A DNA stretch of 64,000 nt, taken from Escherichia coli 042. Lineage in GTDB: Bacteria > Pseudomonadota > Gammaproteobacteria > Enterobacterales > Enterobacteriaceae. Below the pieces are notes generated by a model that had not been told where the DNA came from, did not search any database, and worked only from the letters and a program-made list of their open reading frames with translations. Below, in pieces: positions 3,384 through 11,860 of this stretch. The DNA lies in assembly GCF_000027125.1 (NCBI RefSeq), contig NC_017626.1; one strand, 5' to 3'. How positions within the stretch are numbered: the stretch's first letter is position 1; every line of letters starts with the position of its first letter. Both the position numbers and the translations under genes were made by a program.

Positions 3384-3746
3384 GGGGCTGATTCTGGATT
3401 CGACGGGATTTGCGAAACCCAAGGTGCATGCCGAGGGGCGGTTGGCCTCGTAAAAAGCCGCAAAAAATAGTCGCAAACGACGAAAACTACGCTTTAGCAG
3501 CTTAATAACCTGCTTAGAGCCCTCTCTCCCTAGCCTCCGCTCTTAGGACGGGGATCAAGAGAGGTCAAACCCAAAAGAGATCGCGTGGAAGCCCTGCCTG
3601 GGGTTGAAGCGTTAAAACTTAATCAGGCTAGTTTGTTAGTGGCGTGTCCGTCCGCAGCTGGCAAGCGAATGTAAAGACTGACTAAGCATGTAGTACCGAG
3701 GACGTAGGAATTTCGGACGCGGGTTCAACTCCCGCCAGCTCCACCA
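3384..3746 (+). ncRNA. ssrA: tmRNA (SsrA), 363 nt
   Basis: Starts GGGGCTGATTCTGGATTCGACGGG, contains tag reading frame gcaaacgacgaaaactacgctttagcagcttaa (ANDENYALAA*), ends GGGTTCAACTCCCGCCAGCTCCACCA. Confidence 0.97.
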
Positions 3747-3813: not shown

Positions 3814-3912
3814 CATGTCTAGCAGAGTCTACTGAGAATTGCTAGAAGCTACGCATTATGGGACCCTTATATGGACCCACCGACTGGGTCCAATAATTTG
3901 AGGGTCCAATAC

Positions 3913-5142
3913 ATGGCAAGGCAGACTAAAAAACTCACAGACACTGAAATCAAAAACACCAAACCAGCAGACAAAGAGATCAATCTCTTCGATGGTGATG
4001 GGCTACTGCTACGAATCGCTCCTTCATCAAAAGGAGGGAAGAAGAACTGGTATCTCAGATATCCAGTGCCAGTAACCAAGAAGCGCACCAAGATGAGCTT
4101 GGGTACCTACCCTCACCTCTCATTAGCAAAGGCAAGAGCTTTGCGTGATGAATACCTGTCGTTACTTGCTAATGGTGTTGACCCTCAAGTCCACATCACT
4201 GAAAAAACTAATGCTCTGAAAGATGCCACGGAGCACACGCTACAAGCAGTTTCTCGAAAGTGGTTAGATGAGAAAATTAAGACTTCTGGCATCTCTCTAG
4301 ACCATGCAGAAGATATCTGGCGCAGCCTCGAAAAAAACATCTTTTCAACTCTGGGTGATGTTCCTATCAAAGAGATCCGCCCCAAAATGCTCAAGCAGCA
4401 TCTTGACCCAATTGAGCAGCGCGGTGTTCTCGAAACTCTACGTCGTATAATTTCCAGACTGAATGAAATCTTTCGCTATGCTGCCACGGAAGAGCTTATA
4501 GAGTTCAATCCTGCCGACAATCTCGCTCAGCGTTTCAGTAAACCTAAGAAGCAAAACATGCCTGCCCTTCCACCTGATGAGCTACCACGCTTCATGGTTG
4601 CTTTATCTAACGCATCTATACGGTTAGAAACCCGTATGCTGATCGAGTGGCAATTGTTGACGTGGGTAAGGCCCGGTGAAGCCGTTCGGGCAAGATGGTG
4701 TGATATTGATGAAGAGAGCAGATTTTGGAATATCCCTTCAGAATTCATGAAAATGAAACGCCCACATAAGGTTCCATTGAGTAAAGAAGCTCTCCGCATT
4801 TTAGAAAACATGCGCCCTATCAGTGGTCATAGAGAATGGGTTTTCCCCAGCATCAAAGCTCCCCTCAGTCATATGCATGAACAAACAGCTAATGCAGCCA
4901 TAATTCGTATGGGGTTTGGCGGAGAGCTTGTTGCTCATGGTATGAGATCTATTGCAAGGACAGCAGCCGAAGAATACGGTAAGTTTAGAACGGAGGTGCT
5001 TGAATCCGCTCTGGCTCATACTAAAAAAGATGAAATAATAGCCGCGTATAACCGTTCGGAATACCTAGTTGAAAGAGAAGAACTAATGAAATGGTGGGGG
5101 GATTATGTCAGCAGCAAAAAATATAAGATGATGGCAGCATAA
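3913..5142 (+). CDS. Tyrosine recombinase / integrase, P4 family
   Basis: MARQTKKLTDTEIKNTKPADKEINLFDGDGL... with C-terminal R..HGMRS..A....Y catalytic-region pattern; similar to but diverged from K-12 IntA; ATG at 3913 preferred over ORF-track start 3871. Confidence 0.88.
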   Translation: MARQTKKLTDTEIKNTKPADKEINLFDGDGLLLRIAPSSKGGKKNWYLRYPVPVTKKRTKMSLGTYPHLSLAKARALRDEYLSLLANGVDPQVHITEKTNALKDATEHTLQAVSRKWLDEKIKTSGISLDHAEDIWRSLEKNIFSTLGDVPIKEIRPKMLKQHLDPIEQRGVLETLRRIISRLNEIFRYAATEELIEFNPADNLAQRFSKPKKQNMPALPPDELPRFMVALSNASIRLETRMLIEWQLLTWVRPGEAVRARWCDIDEESRFWNIPSEFMKMKRPHKVPLSKEALRILENMRPISGHREWVFPSIKAPLSHMHEQTANAAIIRMGFGGELVAHGMRSIARTAAEEYGKFRTEVLESALAHTKKDEIIAAYNRSEYLVEREELMKWWGDYVSSKKYKMMAA

Positions 5143-5163: not shown

Positions 5164-6501
5164 ATGACACAGCATAAGGTGAAAGTAATGAGAATATCAA
5201 AAACATTAGAATCATTATTTACATTTCTAAAGGAAAAAGAGCAGAAAGGTCAACTATTCAATAAAGAGGCTATACTCACAGCCACCGGTTGGAAAGCGGC
5301 TACATTTAGAACTTATTGGGTTAAAGGGCAGTTATCTGACTTTATTAGCGCAATTGATGAAGATACATTTGAGGCATCAAACTGTCAAAACATCTCAGTT
5401 ATAGAGTTTTCGAAACTATTATCTCAAAGTAAGCATAGAAGAGGGTTAGGTCATAATTGCCAGTCGAAACTAGCAAAAGCATTATTAACAAAATCTAGAG
5501 ATAATATGATGCTTGCTCTTGAATTATATAATAGACCTTCAATTGAGAATAGAATGGATGCATTTGTAATGTGTTTTTGCACTTCATGGGAACAATTATT
5601 AAAAGCTATTTTGATTGAAAAAAATGGTGAAGAGTCAATTTTCAAAAAAGAAAACAAGCGAGGATTCAGAGAAACTATTTCACTAAGAGACTGCTTAGAA
5701 AAAACATTCCCATCGAATTCAAAGGTAAGAAATAATATAGAACAAATAACAGTTTTCAGAGATCAGGCTGTACACCTTTTAATGCCAGAAATACAAGGGA
5801 TAGCCTCAAGGATATTTCAGTCTGGCGTTCTTAATTATTCATCATATTTTGAAAAATTCACAGAGGTTTCTTTTCTCAATAACAATAGCACAGGAATGAT
5901 ATCCTTGGTAGGTGAGTTTAGAACACCGCCAATATCCGTACTGAAATCCATTTATGGAGAAGTAGCGACTGATATATTAGACTTAGCAACAACTCTTCAG
6001 CAAGAAGTTGATGATAAAAATGACATAGAGTATGCAATTCCCTTAAATGTAAAACTTGTTTTTGCGACATCAGATGATGATGGGAATACCATAACCTTAG
6101 CTAAAGCTGATGAGGGAATCGAGGGGCTTAAGAAGGCTCTAATTATAGAAAAACCAGTAGATAGATCAAGAACACATCCGTATTTGCAGAAGGATGCCAT
6201 TGAGCATATAAATGAAAAAATCTACGAACTTTATAGTATAGAAAAGATAGAAAAGCATTTAGTATTCAAAGATAACAAAACAGGAAAGAAAGCGATAAAT
6301 AAAAATTGCTTTGATGCTGTTATTTGTAAGAACGGATGGAAAAAATCAAATAATAAATATCATCACAAAAACAATAATCCAGAATACCACTATTATTCAC
6401 CAGCATTAGTAGATGAATTTGTCAAGAAAGCTATGACAAACGAAGATTATCTAATGAATACAAAAAAATGGTATAATGCCAGAAGAAGTAAGAAAAAGTG
6501 A
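5164..6501 (+). CDS. Hypothetical protein, about 437-445 aa, low GC, Lys-rich C-terminus
   Basis: Long ORF; alternative ATG at 5188 has an AAGGTG Shine-Dalgarno; no family assignable by eye. Confidence 0.6.
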   Translation: MTQHKVKVMRISKTLESLFTFLKEKEQKGQLFNKEAILTATGWKAATFRTYWVKGQLSDFISAIDEDTFEASNCQNISVIEFSKLLSQSKHRRGLGHNCQSKLAKALLTKSRDNMMLALELYNRPSIENRMDAFVMCFCTSWEQLLKAILIEKNGEESIFKKENKRGFRETISLRDCLEKTFPSNSKVRNNIEQITVFRDQAVHLLMPEIQGIASRIFQSGVLNYSSYFEKFTEVSFLNNNSTGMISLVGEFRTPPISVLKSIYGEVATDILDLATTLQQEVDDKNDIEYAIPLNVKLVFATSDDDGNTITLAKADEGIEGLKKALIIEKPVDRSRTHPYLQKDAIEHINEKIYELYSIEKIEKHLVFKDNKTGKKAINKNCFDAVICKNGWKKSNNKYHHKNNNPEYHYYSPALVDEFVKKAMTNEDYLMNTKKWYNARRSKKK

Positions 6502-6835
6502 TGAATAGTGAAACTATGAACAGTACATATCATTTATAAGTGTGCTGTTCATAGTAATTCACAGAACATACTGATTAATTTTATTTTTTCCTAAAACCGG
6601 AAGAAAATAAACCAGTGAAATATTCTTTACATTTAAAATTCGGAGGCCACGGAAATATAAAATCTAATATTAATTACTAATTATATTTATAAAAGGTCTG
6701 CCTCTGACCATTTGAAATGAAAAACAAATCCCAATAATATAGAAAAAAATATCTGATATAATAATTTTGTAGATAAAATAGGCCTATATAAAAACATATC
6801 TTTAATTCCCCCCTTAAAAAGAGGGGCAAATACTG

Positions 6836-7801
6836 TCATTCCTCAAATCTATATAACGCGCCATCAAGATATTCTTCAACAGTATCTATACCGATCCATC
6901 TTCGGTTCAAACTCTCAGCTACAGCACCGGCAGTCATCGACCCACCAAATGGATCAAGAACTAAATCCCCTTCATCTGTAAGCATTTTAATGAAGAATTC
7001 AGGAAGCTGCATAGGGAAACGCGCAGGATGAATTTTGATACCATTAGCTTTACATTTTTTTGTATAAACGTCATTAGCTGCATTATTACCCATTTTCAAT
7101 ACATCAGACGGTGTTTCATCATCAATAAAATTAGGTGGGATAGACCCTCCATTATGGGTTTTATCAAAAGATTCATTAATATTATGTCCTGATGGTCGAA
7201 CAGTAGTTTTAACACCTTTTGCTGCAAGCCGAAGCATGTCCTTGCTATAAGGACGAAGCACTTTTTTATTACTTGCTTTTGGGTGTGGCCCTTTACTAAA
7301 CCAGAAAACATACTCTACAGAATCCTTCACTCGGACTCGTTTGACTGTAACCCATTGAGCAGGTACAGGCATCTTTGCAGGGTTGTACCAGAAAGTCTCT
7401 TGCGCTAGTCTGAATCCTACTTCCTCAACTAAAGCAATAACTAACTTAAAATGATAGATAGATCTAGTTGGCTCACCGGGATTCCAAGAGCCCCCGATGT
7501 TCAAAACGAAACTGCCATCTTCTGTCAGTATCCTTTTGATTTCTTTCGCAAAATCAACAAACCACTCAACGTAGTCCTTCTGACAGACATTACCATATTC
7601 TTTCTTAAAATGAAGTGCATATGGTGGAGATGTGAAGACTAAGTTAACCGAGTTATCAGGTATTGACTTCATCACGTCTAACGAATCGGCGTGGAAGATC
7701 GAACCCAAGTTAGATTCGTAAAACGGTTCAAACCCGTTGACTAACTTTGTAGTTGAATTTTTCTCTTTTGATGAAAAGTCAAGCGTTTTTTGAATAGTCA
7801 C
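6836..7801 (-). CDS. DNA methyltransferase, beta-class amino-methyltransferase (N4-cytosine or N6-adenine)
   Basis: Motif IV TSPPY near the N-terminus and motif [11 protein letters not shown] near the C-terminus (order IV then I); no ATG upstream of the conserved N-terminal region, so start is GTG at 7801 or GTG at 7882. Confidence 0.8.
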
Positions 7802-7869
7802 AACAATAAATCTCGAAATGGGCAATCGGATTGCATTGTTGCGTACATAACACAAGGGATCAAGTACAG

Positions 7870-8559
7870 ATGAACCAACCACAGGACTTTACAGCTCTTC
7901 TTAACAGCTTAACTCCTCAAGAGCAGCAAATGCTTTTCACGCAACTTCGCGGAAGAATTCCCATCCATCCTCTTGAACAGCAATGGAATATTACAGCAGA
8001 ATTCATTTTAGAAGCCATTGCGCGAAGCCAAGATATCACGAAACGAGGCGTAAGAGGAATCATTGCAGAGCTATGTTTCGATACATATATCATAGGTGCA
8101 ATGAAACATAAGGGCTGGATACAACATCAACTTTTTGGAGATTTACCCTATGATGCACTGATTTCTCATCCTCATGTCGGGGAAATAAAAATACAAACTA
8201 AAAACCAACGACTTGAACGTGGAGTCCCAAAATACGCAAATGGACCAATGATAAAATTCAATCCATATGTCGAAGGTTGGTATGTTTGCGAAACACAGAA
8301 AACGAGGACAGGAAAAAATGCGGAAGGGTTAGATACGAGGCCATATAGATTTGGTGAGTTTGATATACTATCAGTTTGCCTCCATCCGTCATCGGGTGAT
8401 TGGACACGATTCATGTTTTGCCCTGCATATACACTAATGCCAAGAGCGACAAATCCTGAACTAATTGCTGTTTTACAACCAGTACCACCTACACGACAAG
8501 GAAATTGGACTGATAATCTTGAGGAAGCGATTGAATGGCATTTGAACCGTAATCGTTAA
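7870..8559 (+). CDS. Putative restriction endonuclease partner of the methyltransferase (PD-ExK-like motif)
   Basis: Divergent from the methyltransferase with a short shared control region; ATG at 7870 has an AAGGG ribosome-binding site; motif [18 protein letters not shown] fits D...ExK. Confidence 0.45.
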
Positions 8560-8597
8560 AAACGGGGAATATAGCCAACTATATCTATAATATTAAA

Positions 8598-8725
8598 AGG
8601 GCCTTACGGCCCTTTCGTTTTCCCTTAAAGGGAACTCTCCCTTGGAGAGAATACATATCCCCACACTTGGGGCAAATCAATCAGCCCATTGGGCTGTACA
8701 CCACTCCCCATACATGGGGCAATCA
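8598..8725. repeat. Array of six consecutive GC-rich mini-hairpins (5-6 bp stems, 3-4 nt loops)
   Basis: GGGCC-TTAC-GGCCC, CCC-TTAAA-GGG, CTCTCC-CTT-GGAGAG, CCCCA-CACT-TGGGG, CAGCCC-ATT-GGGCTG, CCCCA-TACA-TGGGG; two units share the context TGGGGCAA(A)TCA. Confidence 0.6.
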
Positions 8726-9204
8726 GACACTTCCTGAAGTGAATATCCTCAAGGAACCATTATTAAATATAATATTAAATGTAGATTGTCAAATATATTT
8801 GAATATTTATTAAAAATATATTCACAACGACCAATCACAAATAAATTTAATCCCCCATAAATAATTAGAGGATCAAACCAAGTTCCTGATGCCTTATCTC
8901 TTTTATATCTCATGGTATATGTCTGAATGTCAAAACATGGTATATAACAACCAGAGAGCATTTTTATAGGCTGCTATTATCTGACACTCCTTTCCCCGTT
9001 GCTGTTTCCTATAAAAGAGCCAGAGATAGATAATAGCATTTTTATTTCTATCTTATTCACTCTGGATCGCTCGGCTCACAGCTTATTGGGGCGCTCGGAA
9101 CATCAACATAGGATAAAATACCTACCATTTAAATAAATCATAAGATTATACATGTCAAGATAAAGCATGAAATTATATATAGGTTTATCACGGCTATAGA
9201 TACT

Positions 9205-9516
9205 TCACTCCTGCCTCCCAATCATATCCCCAAGAAACCTTTTTCCTCGTAATTTTAATCTTGCTTTATCTTCAATGCTAATATTCGATAATTGTAATAT
9301 CAGTCCTAATATTAACTCCTTATCTACCTCTTCTACTTTACAGCCCATAGCTTTAGCTACCTCAGCACCAAGGATGATCTTCAAGCGTGTCTCTGCGCTC
9401 TTGGATAGAGATTTTTCTTTACTCTTAAGGCGATTCAGACGCATTTGAGCTGATGCTATTTTTTGCTTAATGGTTTTTTCTGATCTCGGCTTTCTACCTT
9501 TATCATCCGTATTCAT
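9205..9516 (-). CDS. mobC: MobC-like mobilisation accessory protein
   Basis: 103 aa basic protein; RL..L....E.R.K.ILGA.VAK pattern resembles RSF1010 MobC; divergent from the relaxase across the oriT-like region. Confidence 0.6.
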   Translation of the reverse strand: MNTDDKGRKPRSEKTIKQKIASAQMRLNRLKSKEKSLSKSAETRLKIILGAEVAKAMGCKVEEVDKELILGLILQLSNISIEDKARLKLRGKRFLGDMIGRQE

Positions 9517-9696: not shown

Positions 9697-10149
9697 CAAA
9701 AAATGATGTTTTGGTTTTAAAAATATGATATTAGTAAGCTCAAAATAAAAACATGCAACACATACGAATGCAGTCACTAACATTAATTACCTGATACTCT
9801 CCGCGTTACTTATTTTATTGAATCAATGAAAACAATTTTACCTCTTGCTTTTTGACTCTGATTTCTGGTCTTAACCTGTGAATTGTGCAACACATAAAAG
9901 TATTTATAATTTTCACTATTTATTTTAAATTCTGCTTTCCCGCCTTACGGCGAGAGACTAATTTAACTACTTTTGCCCTTACGGGCGTTTTCTAAACACC
10001 AGAATCCAATATTATTATCCTACCTCAACCGTTTATCCGATTCCTACCTTTTTAATTTCACAGTCTGTAAAACTAGAGCTATTATTTAACTATAGAAAAA
10101 CATAAAACATTGTCGTTATTTTTAGCTCCTTTAGGAGATATAAAAATAA

Positions 10150-10260
10150 AGCAATGCCCACCTATACACTGCTACGCAGTGTGTGGGGTCTACCGACGGT
10201 TGCCTGCCGCAGGCTAACACCGTTTCCTTCGGAAACAAGGTCAACGTCAACACCAGAGTT
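10150..10260. other. Candidate origin of transfer (oriT), MOBQ/RSF1010-like
   Basis: Between divergent mobC-like and mobA-like genes; inverted repeats ACACTG-CTACG-CAGTGT (10157-10188) and GTTTCC-TTC-GGAAAC (10222-10236), the latter resembling the RSF1010 oriT inverted repeat. Confidence 0.5.
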
Positions 10261-10351: not shown

Positions 10352-11860
10352 ATGGCTATTTTTCATCTGGATTTTAAAATTGTGAAACGTTCTGAAGGCA
10401 GATCTTCCGTTGCGAAAGCTGCCTATCATGCTCGTACACGTATAACAGATGAAAGAACAGGTGATACCTATGATTATAGTCGCCGTACCGATTTATACGG
10501 ACATTTCATATTAGCACCAATTAATGCTCCAGAACATATCGTGAAAGACTCTACAGCATTGTGGAATGAAGTTGAAAGAGTTGAGCGCCAGAGCAATGGT
10601 CAAACATCCCGTTATTTCGATGTTGCCATACCTGCCGAGTTAAACAATGACGACAAGAAAAGACTTGTCCTTGAGTATTGTCAGAAAAATTTCGTTGATA
10701 AAGGCATGATTGCCGATATCGCTTTCCACGATCTTGATAGCGATAATCCTCATGCTCACGTTATGTTGACATTAAAAACCATAGGCCCTGAAGGTTTTGG
10801 TAAAAAAGAAAGAAGCTGGAACGACAGAAAAATGTCTGTTATATGGCGTGAATCATGGGCATCTATGGCTAACAGCTACCTTGCTGCCGCTGGCTCGTCA
10901 GAACGTATTGACCATCGTTCTCTTCAGGCCCAGCATGAAGAGGCATTAGAAAAAGCGGCGGTAGCTTTAGATAATGAAGAAAAAGCGCTATGGCTTGCTA
11001 AAGCCGCTGAAACAAACCGTCCTCCAATGAAGCGTATCCATAGTGCCAAATGGCGTAGTAAAGCAGCACAAGAGCAAAGAGCAGCAGAACAGGCTGTTCG
11101 TGATGCTGCCAAGCAGGAAGCGGTTGAAGTCTACAAGACTTTCAGCGAACTTGATCTTGAAATCGTCGTTGATGTCAGAAGCTTCACCGTGGCTGCTCTT
11201 GCTGAACCAGAAGAGATTGTATTACCAGAAACGCGCTCCGGCTCTTCTTCTCATGAAGCACAAAGTCCTGTATTGGTAGCGCCTATTCCTCATACTCATG
11301 TGCGTGGAGTTAAATCTTACCGCGATAAAGAAAAAGTGAGTAAAGTTGTCATTAATAATATATCAGAACCAAATGTTGCTGATGCTGACATAAACACTCT
11401 TTGGAAAACATCTCCATCTAAAACCAAAAATATGGCATCCAAAAGTACCGCTGAAAGTGTTAAAAGGAAACAGGCTAATCCGCGTCAGGATAATATCTTT
11501 AAACGCTTTACAACGCTTTTGATCGGTTTCTTCAAAGAGAAATTTATATGGGCTAAGAAGAAACCTGATCCTACCGAGATTGAACATGACAGGCATGTAG
11601 CAGAAAATTACGTCTTTGATGAAGTGCTGGGTGTCTATGTATCACGCGCTGACCATGAACAACGAGCCAGATTCAACGGTGATGATAAAGAGTTCTCTGG
11701 TTACAAGCCAACACCTGATGAGATTAAGCGTTTTCCAAGCCGTCTAGCTAATACAGCACAAACTGATAGAGAGCTCGACTACATGCCTTCGCTCGTGGCT
11801 GATAAGAAATCGTTAGCACCTAAATTGAAACCAAATGCTCCCTATAAAAATAGATTATAA
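10352..11860 (+). CDS. mobA: Relaxase, MobA/MobL (MOBQ) family
   Basis: N-terminus MAIFHLDFKIVKRSEGRSSVAKAAYHARTR and NPHAHVMLT (HxH) motif parallel RSF1010 MobA (MAIYHL..., NPHCHLMIS). Confidence 0.85.
   Translation: MAIFHLDFKIVKRSEGRSSVAKAAYHARTRITDERTGDTYDYSRRTDLYGHFILAPINAPEHIVKDSTALWNEVERVERQSNGQTSRYFDVAIPAELNNDDKKRLVLEYCQKNFVDKGMIADIAFHDLDSDNPHAHVMLTLKTIGPEGFGKKERSWNDRKMSVIWRESWASMANSYLAAAGSSERIDHRSLQAQHEEALEKAAVALDNEEKALWLAKAAETNRPPMKRIHSAKWRSKAAQEQRAAEQAVRDAAKQEAVEVYKTFSELDLEIVVDVRSFTVAALAEPEEIVLPETRSGSSSHEAQSPVLVAPIPHTHVRGVKSYRDKEKVSKVVINNISEPNVADADINTLWKTSPSKTKNMASKSTAESVKRKQANPRQDNIFKRFTTLLIGFFKEKFIWAKKKPDPTEIEHDRHVAENYVFDEVLGVYVSRADHEQRARFNGDDKEFSGYKPTPDEIKRFPSRLANTAQTDRELDYMPSLVADKKSLAPKLKPNAPYKNRL

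What the first reader, a model, noticed from the sequence alone, without database searches (positions are those of the whole stretch)
8598..8725. Six back-to-back GC-rich mini-hairpins in a 130-bp intergenic stretch
Immediately after the putative endonuclease gene there is a dense run of short stem-loops; two share the context CCCCA-yACw-TGGGG-CAA(A)TCA. The first (GGGCC-TTAC-GGCCC with flanking A and T runs) reads as a bidirectional terminator, but six in a row is more than termination needs. It could be a structured RNA, a recombination hotspot or a protein-binding array.
Basis: seen in the sequence. Interest (0 to 1): 0.5.

Follow-up and report, generated by a model that had tools for sequence, protein, structure and literature searches.

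The report
Conserved hairpin-array module in mobilizable islands
The run of mini-hairpins is real and belongs to a roughly 205-bp non-coding module, undescribed as far as I could find, that sits between the swappable cargo genes and the transfer genes of a family of mobilizable genomic islands in enterobacteria; it most likely encodes a small structured RNA, but no expression data were available.

Summary
Six perfect short GC-rich hairpins lie at 8596-8719 and a seventh at 8728-8741. They fold far better than shuffled sequence (z -5.5 on plus, -4.7 on minus).

The window is E. coli chromosome carrying a ROD21/EARL-like mobilizable island at ssrA. The hairpins belong to a discrete block (8596-~8800) running from a terminator hairpin to a perfect TTGACA hexamer on the minus strand.

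I found the block:
- once per genome in 68 of 5,426 complete E. coli genomes;
- in seven other genome assemblies (five named genera, two MAGs), four further lineages fetched blind via TraD, and 29 metagenome contigs (49 sequence versions in all);
- always directly after the last cargo gene, with 13 unrelated left flanks and 9 right flanks that mix freely.

Stems are 97% conserved, with a few compensatory changes. Wobble-type changes and the GNRA loop of hairpin 1 favour folding of the minus strand.

The block has no Rfam, plasmid or phage match. Some related islands lack it and carry only one plain terminator at that junction.

Best reading (confidence 0.4): a leftward gene for a structured RNA of about 165 nt that also insulates the convergent junction and acts as a crossover point. 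Rivals are a pure tandem terminator, a single-strand DNA priming site, and a cargo-capture site. Expression is untested.

The parts
8596..8615 (.). hp1: AAAGGGCC-TTAC-GGCCCTTT. An intrinsic terminator hairpin and the left edge of the conserved block. The plus-strand U-tract TTTCGTTTT follows at 8613-8621.
   Evidence: Called as a plus-strand terminator. Homology in all versions begins at its base. One compensatory GC->AU pair. The loop is GNRA on the minus strand in 27 of 40 versions and on the plus strand in 7 of 40.
8620..8634 (.). hp2: TTCCCT-TAA-AGGGAA.
   Evidence: Read from sequence. Cells paired: 92% on plus, 97% on minus. It is the least constrained stem.
8635..8649 (.). hp3: CTCTCC-CTT-GGAGAG. 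The triloop is ATT in nearly all other versions.
   Evidence: Two adjacent pairs change together (CTCTCC/GGAGAG -> CTACCC/GGGTAG) in 5 of 40 versions.
8659..8672 (.). hp4: CCCCA-CACT-TGGGG, followed by CAAATCAATCAG.
   Evidence: The stem is unchanged in 39 of 40 versions while the loop varies. The motif is unique to this locus in the window.
8682..8696 (.). hp5: CAGCCC-ATT-GGGCTG.
   Evidence: One-sided changes here are mostly G.U-compatible on the minus strand only: 16 cells against 4 on plus. Minus-strand pairing is 98.6%.
8706..8719 (.). hp6: CCCCA-TACA-TGGGG, followed by CAATCAGAC.
8728..8741 (.). hp7: CACTT-CCTG-AAGTG.
   Evidence: Seen in sequence. Its five pairs are 97.5-98.9% kept in the wider sets.
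8742..8800 (.). Conserved AT-rich tail of the block. It carries a direct repeat ATTAAAT spaced 12 nt apart, has no indels in 35 of 36 versions, and is the right edge of homology.
   Evidence: Alignments. Mean column conservation is 0.88. Right flanks diverge just after TTGTCAAAT.
8787..8792 (-). Perfect -35-type hexamer TTGACA, read on the minus strand.
   Evidence: Kept in 34 of 40 versions. It is the best-conserved part of the AT-rich tail at 0.976. In L018/L049 homology ends 1-3 nt beyond it.
8764..8769 (-). Weak -10-type hexamer TATTTA (TAYYTA across versions), 17 bp after TTGACA. It lacks the usual final T.
   Evidence: Read from the alignment. The consensus promoter scan did not call it.
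8592..8757 (-). Predicted leftward transcript of about 165 nt: a start near 8757 (inferred), then hp7 to hp2, ending at hp1.
   Evidence: Inference from the block boundaries. The RNA fold of 8594-8760(-) is -69.9 kcal/mol, z -4.46. Minus-strand pairing is 98.4%. No expression data.

Best explanation
The hairpins are the body of a self-contained non-coding module of about 205 bp (8596-~8800). It belongs to the backbone of one large sub-lineage of ROD21/EARL-type integrative mobilizable islands.

Read on the minus strand, the module looks like a small gene:
- a perfect -35 box (TTGACA, 8792-8787);
- 17 bp further on, a weak -10 box (TATTTA);
- a transcript of about 165 nt that folds into seven short GC-rich stem-loops, with conserved single-stranded linkers and two conserved AAU triloops;
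- the hp1 hairpin as its terminator.

The most likely product is an island-encoded structured small RNA. Its target or protein partner is unknown.

The module lies exactly where the rightward cargo operon meets leftward transcription from the pilV, parB or traD side. This placement gives it two further roles:
- hp1 terminates the cargo operon, and the other hairpins block leftward read-through, so the module insulates the junction.
- Its conserved sequence is the crossover point at which cargo modules are exchanged between islands.

What is shown: the anatomy, the conservation, the position, the base-pair maintenance and the mosaic flanks. What is inferred: transcription, the RNA's ends and any regulatory role.
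For: 1. Discrete unit. Homology across 49 versions starts at the base of hp1 and ends a few bases beyond TTGACA. In other words it runs from a terminator to a -35 box.

2. Constraint pattern. Mean column conservation is 0.973 for stems, 0.976 for the -35 hexamer, 0.915 for linkers, 0.88 for the AT tail and 0.847 for loops. The 17-bp spacing has no indels in 35 of 36 versions.

3. Base pairing is maintained. 96.5% of cells pair on plus and 98.4% on minus. Three pairs show compensatory double changes. The covariation score exceeds all 500 shuffles and all slid controls.

4. Strand. Of the non-Watson-Crick cells, 43 are G.U on the minus strand, 17 are G.U on plus, and 14 are true mismatches. Stems show 13 G>A events against 6 C>T, and unpaired columns show no such bias. 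The hp1 loop is an RNA-type GNRA tetraloop on the minus strand in 27 of 40 versions.

5. It behaves like a gene.
- One copy per genome.
- Patchy presence: in 4 of 8 TraD-anchored lineages.
- Decay in degraded islands: LF82-type remnants, L014, and ROD21 itself.
- In two divergent backbones it is far better kept than the neighbouring genes: 87-97% identity where mobQ and traD are 68-72%.

6. It is not needed as a plain terminator. Islands without it use one ordinary hairpin or nothing obvious.

7. It is not coding. Indels of 1-2 nt break the only ORF.
Against: - There is no transcript evidence of any kind.
- The -10 box lacks the near-universal final T, and the consensus promoter scan did not call the site.
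- The minus-strand U-tract after hp1 is only 3-4 U and lies mostly outside the conserved block. The plus-strand U-tract is long and always conserved.
- Compensatory changes are few (3 pairs) and come from few lineages. The shuffle controls do not correct for shared ancestry.
- The strand asymmetry is modest: 18 versus 9 events.
- Where the cargo is homologous, the array is no better conserved than the cargo gene. Part of its apparent conservation could therefore reflect recent spread and hitch-hiking with cargo.
- I found no conserved complementary target inside the islands.
- There is no Rfam match.
- In ROD21 a marker was inserted into a degenerate copy, and excision and transfer were still observed (PMC3198454, PMC3976249).
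Confidence: 0.4

Rival explanations
1. Passive tandem terminator or insulator. The block is only a stack of transcription stops at a convergent junction. hp1 ends the cargo operon. hp5, hp4, hp3 and hp1 successively stop leftward transcripts from traD, pilV or parB, so that backbone and cargo do not produce antisense RNA against each other. No separate RNA product matters.
For: - The block always sits between convergent units.
- The terminator scan calls hp1 on the plus strand and hp5, hp4 and hp3 on the minus strand: 5 sites against 0.6 expected.
- The plus-strand U-tract is conserved.
- The GNRA loop on hp1 fits an RNA terminator.
- The minus-strand wobble bias fits hairpins that act in leftward transcripts.
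Against: - Sister islands manage with one plain hairpin or none obvious.
- Terminators normally drift in sequence, but here the linkers (0.915) and the two ATT triloops are conserved.
- It does not explain the conserved AT-rich tail, the fixed spacing, or why homology ends at a perfect TTGACA.
Confidence: 0.25
2. Single-strand DNA priming signal (an sso/ssi-type element). After the island is mobilized as single-stranded DNA, or replicates by rolling circle from oriT, the hairpins stay folded on the single strand. They recruit a host enzyme (primase, PriA or RNA polymerase) to start synthesis of the complementary strand.
For: - The island is a MobQ-relaxase mobilizable element.
- The DNA fold is very stable, z -6.8.
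- High conservation across divergent backbones would fit a host-encoded partner.
- The module is discrete, orientation-fixed and patchily distributed, as sso cassettes of rolling-circle plasmids are (my knowledge).
- It lies about 1.45 kb upstream of the candidate nick region. This resembles an sso placed just upstream of a dso, if the plus strand is the one transferred (inference from the R1162 rule, from memory).
Against: - The block contains no AAGCGG, TAGCGT or DnaA-box motif, which are signatures of known priming signals as I recall them.
- The wobble bias points to the minus strand, whereas the oriT anatomy suggests that the plus strand is transferred.
- The GNRA loop preference is an RNA feature, not a DNA one.
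- Half of the related lineages lack the block.
- ROD21 still transfers with its copy degenerate and disrupted.
Confidence: 0.15
3. Cargo-docking or recombination site. The hairpins (folded DNA) or the block as a homology patch direct the insertion or exchange of defence cargo immediately to the left of hp1. This would be loosely comparable to integron attC sites, T4 PeSL cassettes or SXT hotspots.
For: - Thirteen unrelated cargo families end 9-74 nt before GGGCC, and homology starts within about 10 nt of the same point.
- Left and right flank families re-assort. For example, L005 combines window-type cargo with an L003-type right flank, with the break at 8798.
- Integrase-fragment pseudogenes after int in L003, L009 and L010 suggest tandem accretion.
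Against: - There is no attC-type core (GTTRRRY) and no shared motif on the cargo side.
- The junctions are ragged by up to 10 nt.
- The island integrase is an ordinary tRNA/tmRNA-site tyrosine recombinase.
- Ordinary homologous recombination on a conserved patch explains the mosaics without any dedicated site.
- This reading does not explain the pairing constraints on seven different stems.
Confidence: 0.08
4. Dispersed selfish repeat (REP/BIME- or MITE-like element) that happens to sit here.
For: Clustered short palindromes lying after a stop codon superficially resemble REP clusters.
Against: There is exactly one copy per genome in all 68 E. coli carriers, never elsewhere in the chromosome and never on plasmids. 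There is no other copy in the window or in any locus. The block is always at the same position inside one island family.
Confidence: 0.01

Closest known systems
Plasmid- and island-borne multi-stem-loop regulatory RNAs (for example FinP, RNAI, CopA, Salmonella island 'Isr' RNAs)
   Same: A compact unit bounded by a promoter-like box and an intrinsic terminator. It has several short stable stem-loops, is carried by a mobile element, and has conserved loops and linkers.
   Different: It is not antisense to any annotated gene, and no target was found. It has seven hairpins rather than two or three. It has no Rfam match, and its expression is untested.
Bidirectional and tandem intrinsic terminators at convergent gene junctions
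   Same: hp1 has all the terminator features, and the block sits between convergent units.
   Different: Six extra hairpins with conserved linkers and an AT-rich tail are added. Sister islands need only one hairpin.
Single-strand origins (sso) of rolling-circle plasmids and of ICEBs1; G4-/phiX-type ssi signals of enterobacterial plasmids (from my knowledge)
   Same: A discrete, strongly folded, orientation-fixed non-coding cassette on an element that passes through a single-stranded stage, with patchy distribution.
   Different: None of the signature motifs is present. The strand signal conflicts with the inferred transferred strand. The hairpins are much shorter than sso stems.
Conserved boundary cassettes of variable regions: T4-type PeSL 'promoter-stem-loop' cassettes and SXT/R391 hotspot borders (from my knowledge)
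   Same: A promoter-like box plus stem-loop(s) marks the edge of a hyper-variable slot, and modules re-assort across it.
   Different: There is a single copy per element rather than many. No circle or cassette intermediates are known.
Integron attC sites
   Same: A folded element immediately follows a promoterless cargo gene.
   Different: It lacks R''/R' cores and is not a single long imperfect hairpin with extrahelical bases. No IntI is present, and there is one site per island rather than one per cassette.
REP/BIME extragenic palindromes of E. coli
   Same: Short GC-rich palindromes clustered after a stop codon.
   Different: Single copy, island-specific, unrelated sequence.

Membership tests
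Intrinsic (Rho-independent) bidirectional terminator (hp1 only) | GC-rich stem, short loop, U-tract after the stem on the transcribed strand | tested here: met
   Plus strand: an 8-bp stem with 5 GC pairs, a 4-nt loop, and the tail CGTTTTCCCT. The U-rich tail is conserved in all versions.
Intrinsic (Rho-independent) bidirectional terminator (hp1 only) | Equivalent U-tract on the opposite strand | tested here: inconclusive
   The minus strand has UUU as part of the stem plus a variable flank (UUUUAAUAU, UUUUCCAUUU, UCUCGUUU and others). The scan did not call it on the minus strand.
Independent small-RNA gene | Own promoter | tested here: inconclusive
   A perfect, conserved TTGACA is followed after 17 bp by TAYYTA, which lacks the final T. 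The consensus scan did not call it.
Independent small-RNA gene | Terminator at the 3' end and conserved secondary structure with covariation | tested here: met
   hp1 lies at the 3' end. 98.4% of cells pair on the minus strand, 3 pairs show compensatory changes, and the covariation score is above 500 of 500 shuffles. The covariation is thin.
Independent small-RNA gene | A detectable transcript | not testable with these tools
   No expression data are available. A literature search by sequence found only a ROD21 primer.
Any curated RNA family (Rfam 15) | Covariance-model score at or near the gathering threshold | tested here: not met
   The best hits over the array score 15-16 bits against gathering thresholds of 37.6-71, with E-values of 2.6-6.6.
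REP/BIME or MITE | Many dispersed copies per genome | tested here: not met
   One place per genome in 68 of 68 carrier genomes.
Integron attC | R''/R' core sites (RYYYAAC ... GTTRRRY) framing one imperfect hairpin; partner IntI | tested here: not met
   GTTRRRY is absent on both strands. The element has seven short perfect hairpins. The integrase carries Arm-DNA-bind_3 and Phage_integrase domains and sits at a tRNA/tmRNA site.
Known single-strand initiation signals / sso | Signature motifs (AAGCGG for PriA-type sites; CS-6 TAGCGT for ssoA; DnaA box for ABC-type), as I recall them | tested here: not met
   None is present in 8590-8810 on either strand.
Known single-strand initiation signals / sso | Orientation-dependent single-strand to double-strand conversion activity | not testable with these tools
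   This needs an M13-based or conjugation assay.
ROD21/EARL-type integrative mobilizable island (context of the module) | Tyrosine integrase next to a tRNA/tmRNA gene, a TraD homologue, a MOBQ relaxase and low G+C (PMC6035254) | tested here: met
   ssrA at 3384-3746. Integrase at 3871-5142. TraD matches PF06412. MobQ matches NF041496 with 260 bits against a cutoff of 200. G+C is 33-42% against about 50% in the flanks.
ROD21/EARL-type integrative mobilizable island (context of the module) | Flanking direct repeats and an excisionase (RDF) gene; insertion at tRNA-Asn | not tested
   I did not look for the direct repeats or the RDF gene. This island sits at ssrA, not at tRNA-Asn. Related carriers sit at ssrA, tRNA-Leu, tRNA-Asn and tRNA-Arg.

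The most novel reading that the evidence does not exclude
The hairpin array is the fixed 'docking post' of a cargo-capture system. Folded as single-stranded DNA during mobilization or replication, hp1-hp7 would be recognized by an island or helper-plasmid enzyme, such as the MobQ relaxase or another HUH or tyrosine enzyme. That enzyme would insert or swap promoterless defence modules precisely at the base of hp1. This would make these islands a second, integron-like platform for collecting anti-phage genes.
Probability: 0.06. Interest if true: 0.85.

Novelty: new member of a known kind. Interest (0 to 1): 0.55.

Why it matters
ROD21/EARL-type islands carry virulence and anti-phage cargo in Salmonella, E. 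coli, Erwinia and other enterobacteria. Examples seen here are TIR proteins, type II and type III restriction systems, and the candidate defence family PDC-S19.

This work identifies a conserved non-coding module at the exact border of their main cargo slot. I found no description of it:
- the EARL description paper (PMC6035254) contains none of the noncoding terms I searched for;
- full-text searches for the module's own sequence found only one ROD21 primer;
- Rfam has no matching family.

Three practical consequences follow:
- The module is a handy marker for finding the cargo slot in new genomes.
- It is a candidate regulatory RNA that could link cargo or backbone expression to island behaviour.
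- The 'neutral' intergenic site used to tag ROD21 with resistance markers lies inside a degenerate copy of this element. That should be kept in mind when interpreting those strains.

If the RNA is real, it would be a new island-borne RNA family found in at least ten named genera of Enterobacterales.

Tried and rejected
- Rfam scan at E<=10: only noise.
- Plasmid and phage collections: no match to the block in 'distant' mode. A Klebsiella plasmid carries the traD-mobQ segment without the block.
- Dispersed repeat (REP/MITE): rejected, because there is one copy per genome.
- Small protein: the 48-codon ORF at 8667-8813 is broken by 1-2-nt indels in relatives.
- Trans-target search: 10-12-mers of the array do not recur in the window above chance, with 22 ten-mers found against about 19 expected. 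The conserved linkers have no conserved complement elsewhere in 14 islands.
- attC, PriA-site, ssoA CS-6, DnaA-box and Dam-site motifs: all absent.
- IHF, sigma-54, Xer/dif-like and extended -10 readings of the AT-rich tail: checked by eye against remembered consensus sequences. None fitted, and I did not pursue them.
- A long-range helix (GACAATC with GATTG) proposed by RNAalifold: only one-sided variation and no double changes, so I did not adopt it.
- Which strand is transferred: I located a strong oriT candidate but could not fix the nick strand. It shows no similarity to the RSF1010/Ti nick sequence as I remember it.
- Literature search by sequence: only a ROD21 primer. The search on single-strand initiation signals gave nothing usable for comparison.
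- More divergent homologues for extra covariation: the four lineages with more distant TraD proteins turned out to lack the block altogether.

Full report
**1. What is in the sequence**

The window is E. coli chromosome. It carries the tmRNA gene ssrA at 3384-3746 with the tag ANDENYALAA, and a 100% match to E. coli isolate AHB1.

A low-G+C island begins directly after ssrA (33-42% G+C against about 50% in the flanks). Its genes run in this order:
- integrase, 3871-5142;
- a DUF3644 protein, 5164-6501, matching the PADLOC candidate defence family PDC-S19 (E 2.6e-68);
- a type II methyltransferase, 6836-7882 (minus strand);
- a divergent 229-aa protein with no family match, 7870-8559;
- the hairpin region;
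- a TraD homologue, 9205-9516 (minus strand);
- a MobQ relaxase, 10352-11860 (260 bits against a cutoff of 200).

This is the layout of the ROD21-like 'EARL' mobilizable islands described by Pina-Iturbe et al. 2018 (PMC6035254).

A seventh lies at 8728-8741. The stretch folds far better than shuffled sequence:
- plus-strand RNA, z -5.49;
- minus-strand RNA, z -4.65;
- minus-strand DNA over the full block, z -6.8.

CCCCA-N4-TGGGG occurs only here in the window: 2 matches against 0.02 expected. hp3+hp4 and hp5+hp6 form a 47-nt internal duplication.

**2. It is a conserved, discrete module**

A megablast search and then a more sensitive blastn search of complete E. coli genomes found the array in 68 of 5,426 genomes. 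It is always chromosomal and always present once per genome.

Annotated neighbourhoods show the same order every time: tRNA or tmRNA, integrase, variable rightward cargo, array, then a variable leftward module or nothing, then traD and mobQ. The insertion sites include ssrA, tRNA-Leu, tRNA-Asn and tRNA-Arg.

Beyond E. coli the array was found as follows:
- A strict pattern scan of one genome per species found it in Pluralibacter, Cedecea, Buttiauxella, Raoultella, Xenorhabdus and two MAGs.
- A looser pattern scan gave 29 metagenome contigs.
- Loci fetched blind through TraD homologues from Erwinia amylovora, a Rahnella-like metagenome bin, Morganella and Salmonella all carry it (nhmmer E about 1e-63 to 1e-67).

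In total there are 49 distinct versions.

Homology starts within a few bases of the foot of hp1 and ends just beyond TTGTCAAAT on the plus strand. The block is therefore about 205 bp.

To the left there are 13 unrelated cargo families. Their last stop codon lies 9-74 nt from GGGCC, and the cargo side shares no motif beyond an A-run. To the right there are 9 unrelated families. Left and right families combine freely. For example, L005 matches the window at 94% up to 8798 and then switches to the parB-type flank seen in L003.

The block is absent from the plasmid and phage collections and from Rfam. The EARL description paper contains none of the noncoding-element terms I searched for.

**3. It is not universal and not indispensable**

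Four lineages anchored on more distant TraD proteins have no trace of the block at nhmmer E<=10:
- Klebsiella (ICEKp258.2-like, an identification from memory);
- a second Salmonella type;
- Serratia;
- Edwardsiella.

The Serratia and Edwardsiella junctions carry one ordinary bidirectional terminator, and the Klebsiella and Salmonella junctions show nothing comparable.

Copies in ROD21-type backbones (L006, L011, L014) are the most diverged and have lost the TTGACA hexamer. Remnant islands such as the one in LF82 keep a truncated, mutated copy.

ROD21 itself holds a degenerate copy between SEN1975 (tlpA) and SEN1976. One of the primers used to insert tetRA there reads GGAACTCTCCATTGGAGAGAATACATATCACTTGGGAAAA (PMC3198454). 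An aph marker was inserted between the same two genes in a later study. The tetRA-tagged strain still excised and the aph-tagged strain still transferred (PMC3198454, PMC3976249).

**4. Structural constraint and strand**

On 40 versions, 96.5% of stem cells pair on the plus strand. On 36 versions read as the minus strand, 98.4% pair.

Three pairs show changes on both sides:
- hp1, GC->AU;
- two adjacent pairs in hp3, where CTCTCC/GGAGAG becomes CTACCC/GGGTAG in five versions.

The covariation score exceeds all 500 column shuffles and all slid controls. These controls do not remove shared ancestry, and the stems of hp4 and hp7 hardly vary, so covariation support is real but thin.

One-sided changes are informative about the strand:
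- 43 cells are G.U-compatible only on the minus strand, 17 only on the plus strand, and 14 are true mismatches.
- Within stems there are 13 G>A events against 6 C>T events, whereas unpaired columns show no such bias.
- The hp1 loop is a GNRA tetraloop on the minus strand in 27 of 40 versions and on the plus strand in 7 of 40. The alternative loops are exact reverse complements (TTAC and GTAA; TTTC and GAAA), so the hairpin has flipped in some lineages.

GNRA preference is an RNA property. Together these signals suggest that the hairpins matter in a leftward (minus-sense) RNA, with modest statistical weight.

Conservation by class is 0.973 for stems, 0.976 for the TTGACA hexamer, 0.915 for linkers, 0.88 for the AT-rich tail and 0.847 for loops. 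The ATT triloops of hp3 and hp5 and the linkers GAATACATAT and CAATCAGAC are almost invariant. Hairpin formation alone does not explain this.

**5. Mechanism: the best reading**

Read on the minus strand, the block begins with a perfect TTGACA (8792-8787). Seventeen base pairs later comes TATTTA (8769-8764; TAYYTA across versions), then seven hairpins, and it ends at hp1.

A unit bounded by a -35 box and a terminator is what a small gene looks like. So is single-copy, patchy presence with decay in dying islands. I therefore favour an island-encoded structured RNA of about 165 nt, running from about 8757 to about 8592 on the minus strand (fold -69.9 kcal/mol, z -4.46).

Weak points:
- The -10 box lacks the final T, and the scan did not call the promoter.
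- The minus-strand U-tract is short.
- No target was found.
- There are no expression data.

Whatever the RNA does, the block's position gives it two side roles that the data do show or strongly imply. It terminates and insulates convergent transcription: hp1 is called on the plus strand, and hp5, hp4 and hp3 are called as terminator-like on the minus strand. It also acts as the crossover point for module exchange.

**6. Rivals**

- *A pure tandem terminator* fits the position and the scan. It does not fit the conserved linkers, triloops, AT-rich tail and TTGACA edge, nor the fact that sister islands need only one hairpin.
- *A single-strand priming site* (sso/ssi type) is attractive for an element mobilized as single-stranded DNA, and would explain conservation through a host partner. 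Against it: no known signature motif is present, and the loop preference is RNA-like. Also, the candidate oriT is an inverted repeat with co-varying inner arms followed by an invariant 37 nt (10158-10225). By the R1162 rule, which I recall from memory, this suggests the plus strand is transferred, whereas the wobble signal favours the minus strand.
- *A dedicated cargo-capture site* is not excluded by the near-coincident junctions. However, it has no motif, the junctions are ragged by up to 10 nt, and homologous recombination suffices to explain the mosaics.
- *A dispersed repeat* is excluded by copy number.

**7. A caveat on conservation**

Against two divergent backbones the array is 87-97% identical where mobQ and traD are 68-72%. 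That is comparable to or higher than the oriT core (81-86%).

Where the neighbouring cargo is homologous, however, the array is no better conserved than the cargo gene. Part of the pattern may therefore reflect recent horizontal spread together with cargo, rather than selection alone.

**8. Verdict**

- The element is a previously undescribed member of a known kind: a conserved structured non-coding module, probably a small-RNA gene, of a mobile island.
- Its function is unresolved, and it is directly testable with one RNA-seq experiment and one deletion.

Noticed in passing
window 10158-10225: Candidate oriT between traD and mobQ. It is an inverted repeat CCCACCTATACACTGC / GCAGTGTGTGGGG whose inner arms co-vary between islands (GCTACGCAGT versus CACTTCGTGAGC). 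It is followed by an invariant GTGTGGGGTCTACCGACGGTTGCCTGCCGCAGGCTAA across 17 islands. It shows no similarity to the RSF1010/Ti nick sequence as I remember it.
   Followed up: partly
window 9941-9956 and 9974-9988: Two more mini-hairpins with the same TTAC loop as hp1 (CGCC-TTAC-GGCG and GCCC-TTAC-GGGC) lie in the traD-mobQ intergenic region.
   Followed up: no
window 5164-8559: The cargo slot holds a DUF3644 protein matching the PADLOC candidate defence family PDC-S19 (E 2.6e-68), plus a type II methyltransferase with a divergent 229-aa partner that matches no NCBIfam or PADLOC family. The 'endonuclease' label is therefore unverified.
   Followed up: partly
Salmonella Enteritidis ROD21, intergenic SEN1975-SEN1976 (PMC3198454 primer asnT_tetRA H1+P1): The site used as a neutral spot to tag ROD21 (tetRA; aph was placed between the same two genes) lies inside a degenerate copy of this module. 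hp3 is intact and hp4 is partly deleted.
   Followed up: partly
window 8800-9204: A 400-bp AT-rich stretch with no credible ORF lies between the block and traD. The flank just right of the block is shared by 29 loci (right-flank family 1). It contains a direct repeat CATGGTATAT x2 at 8911-8920 and 8936-8945. In other islands a pilV-pilin module or a parB-repB-recombinase module sits between the block and traD; the exact replacement was shown for the parB-type loci L003 and L005.
   Followed up: no
L003 5084-5336; L009 and L010 2561-2691: Integrase-fragment pseudogenes lie directly after the intact integrase. This suggests past tandem insertion of two islands followed by deletion, which is a possible route for cargo replacement.
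   Followed up: no
hp1 loop across versions (alignment A4 columns 17-20): Alternative loops are exact reverse complements of each other (TTAC/GTAA, TTTC/GAAA). The palindromic hairpin has therefore flipped orientation in some lineages while keeping a GNRA loop on one strand.
   Followed up: partly
L157 10410-10460; L159 9300-9440: Related islands without the array have a single ordinary bidirectional terminator at the cargo/backbone junction (AAGAAGGCATA...TATGCCTTCTT; ACAGGGCTTTAATTAAAGCCCTGT).
   Followed up: yes
plasmid CP110748.1 (Klebsiella pneumoniae), 125371-127702: A 310-kb plasmid carries the traD-mobQ segment at 89% identity but not the hairpin module.
   Followed up: no
window 8791-8804: A perfect 14-nt AT-rich palindrome TCAAATATATTTGA overlaps the right edge of the block and the TTGACA hexamer. 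It is only partly kept in other versions.
   Followed up: no
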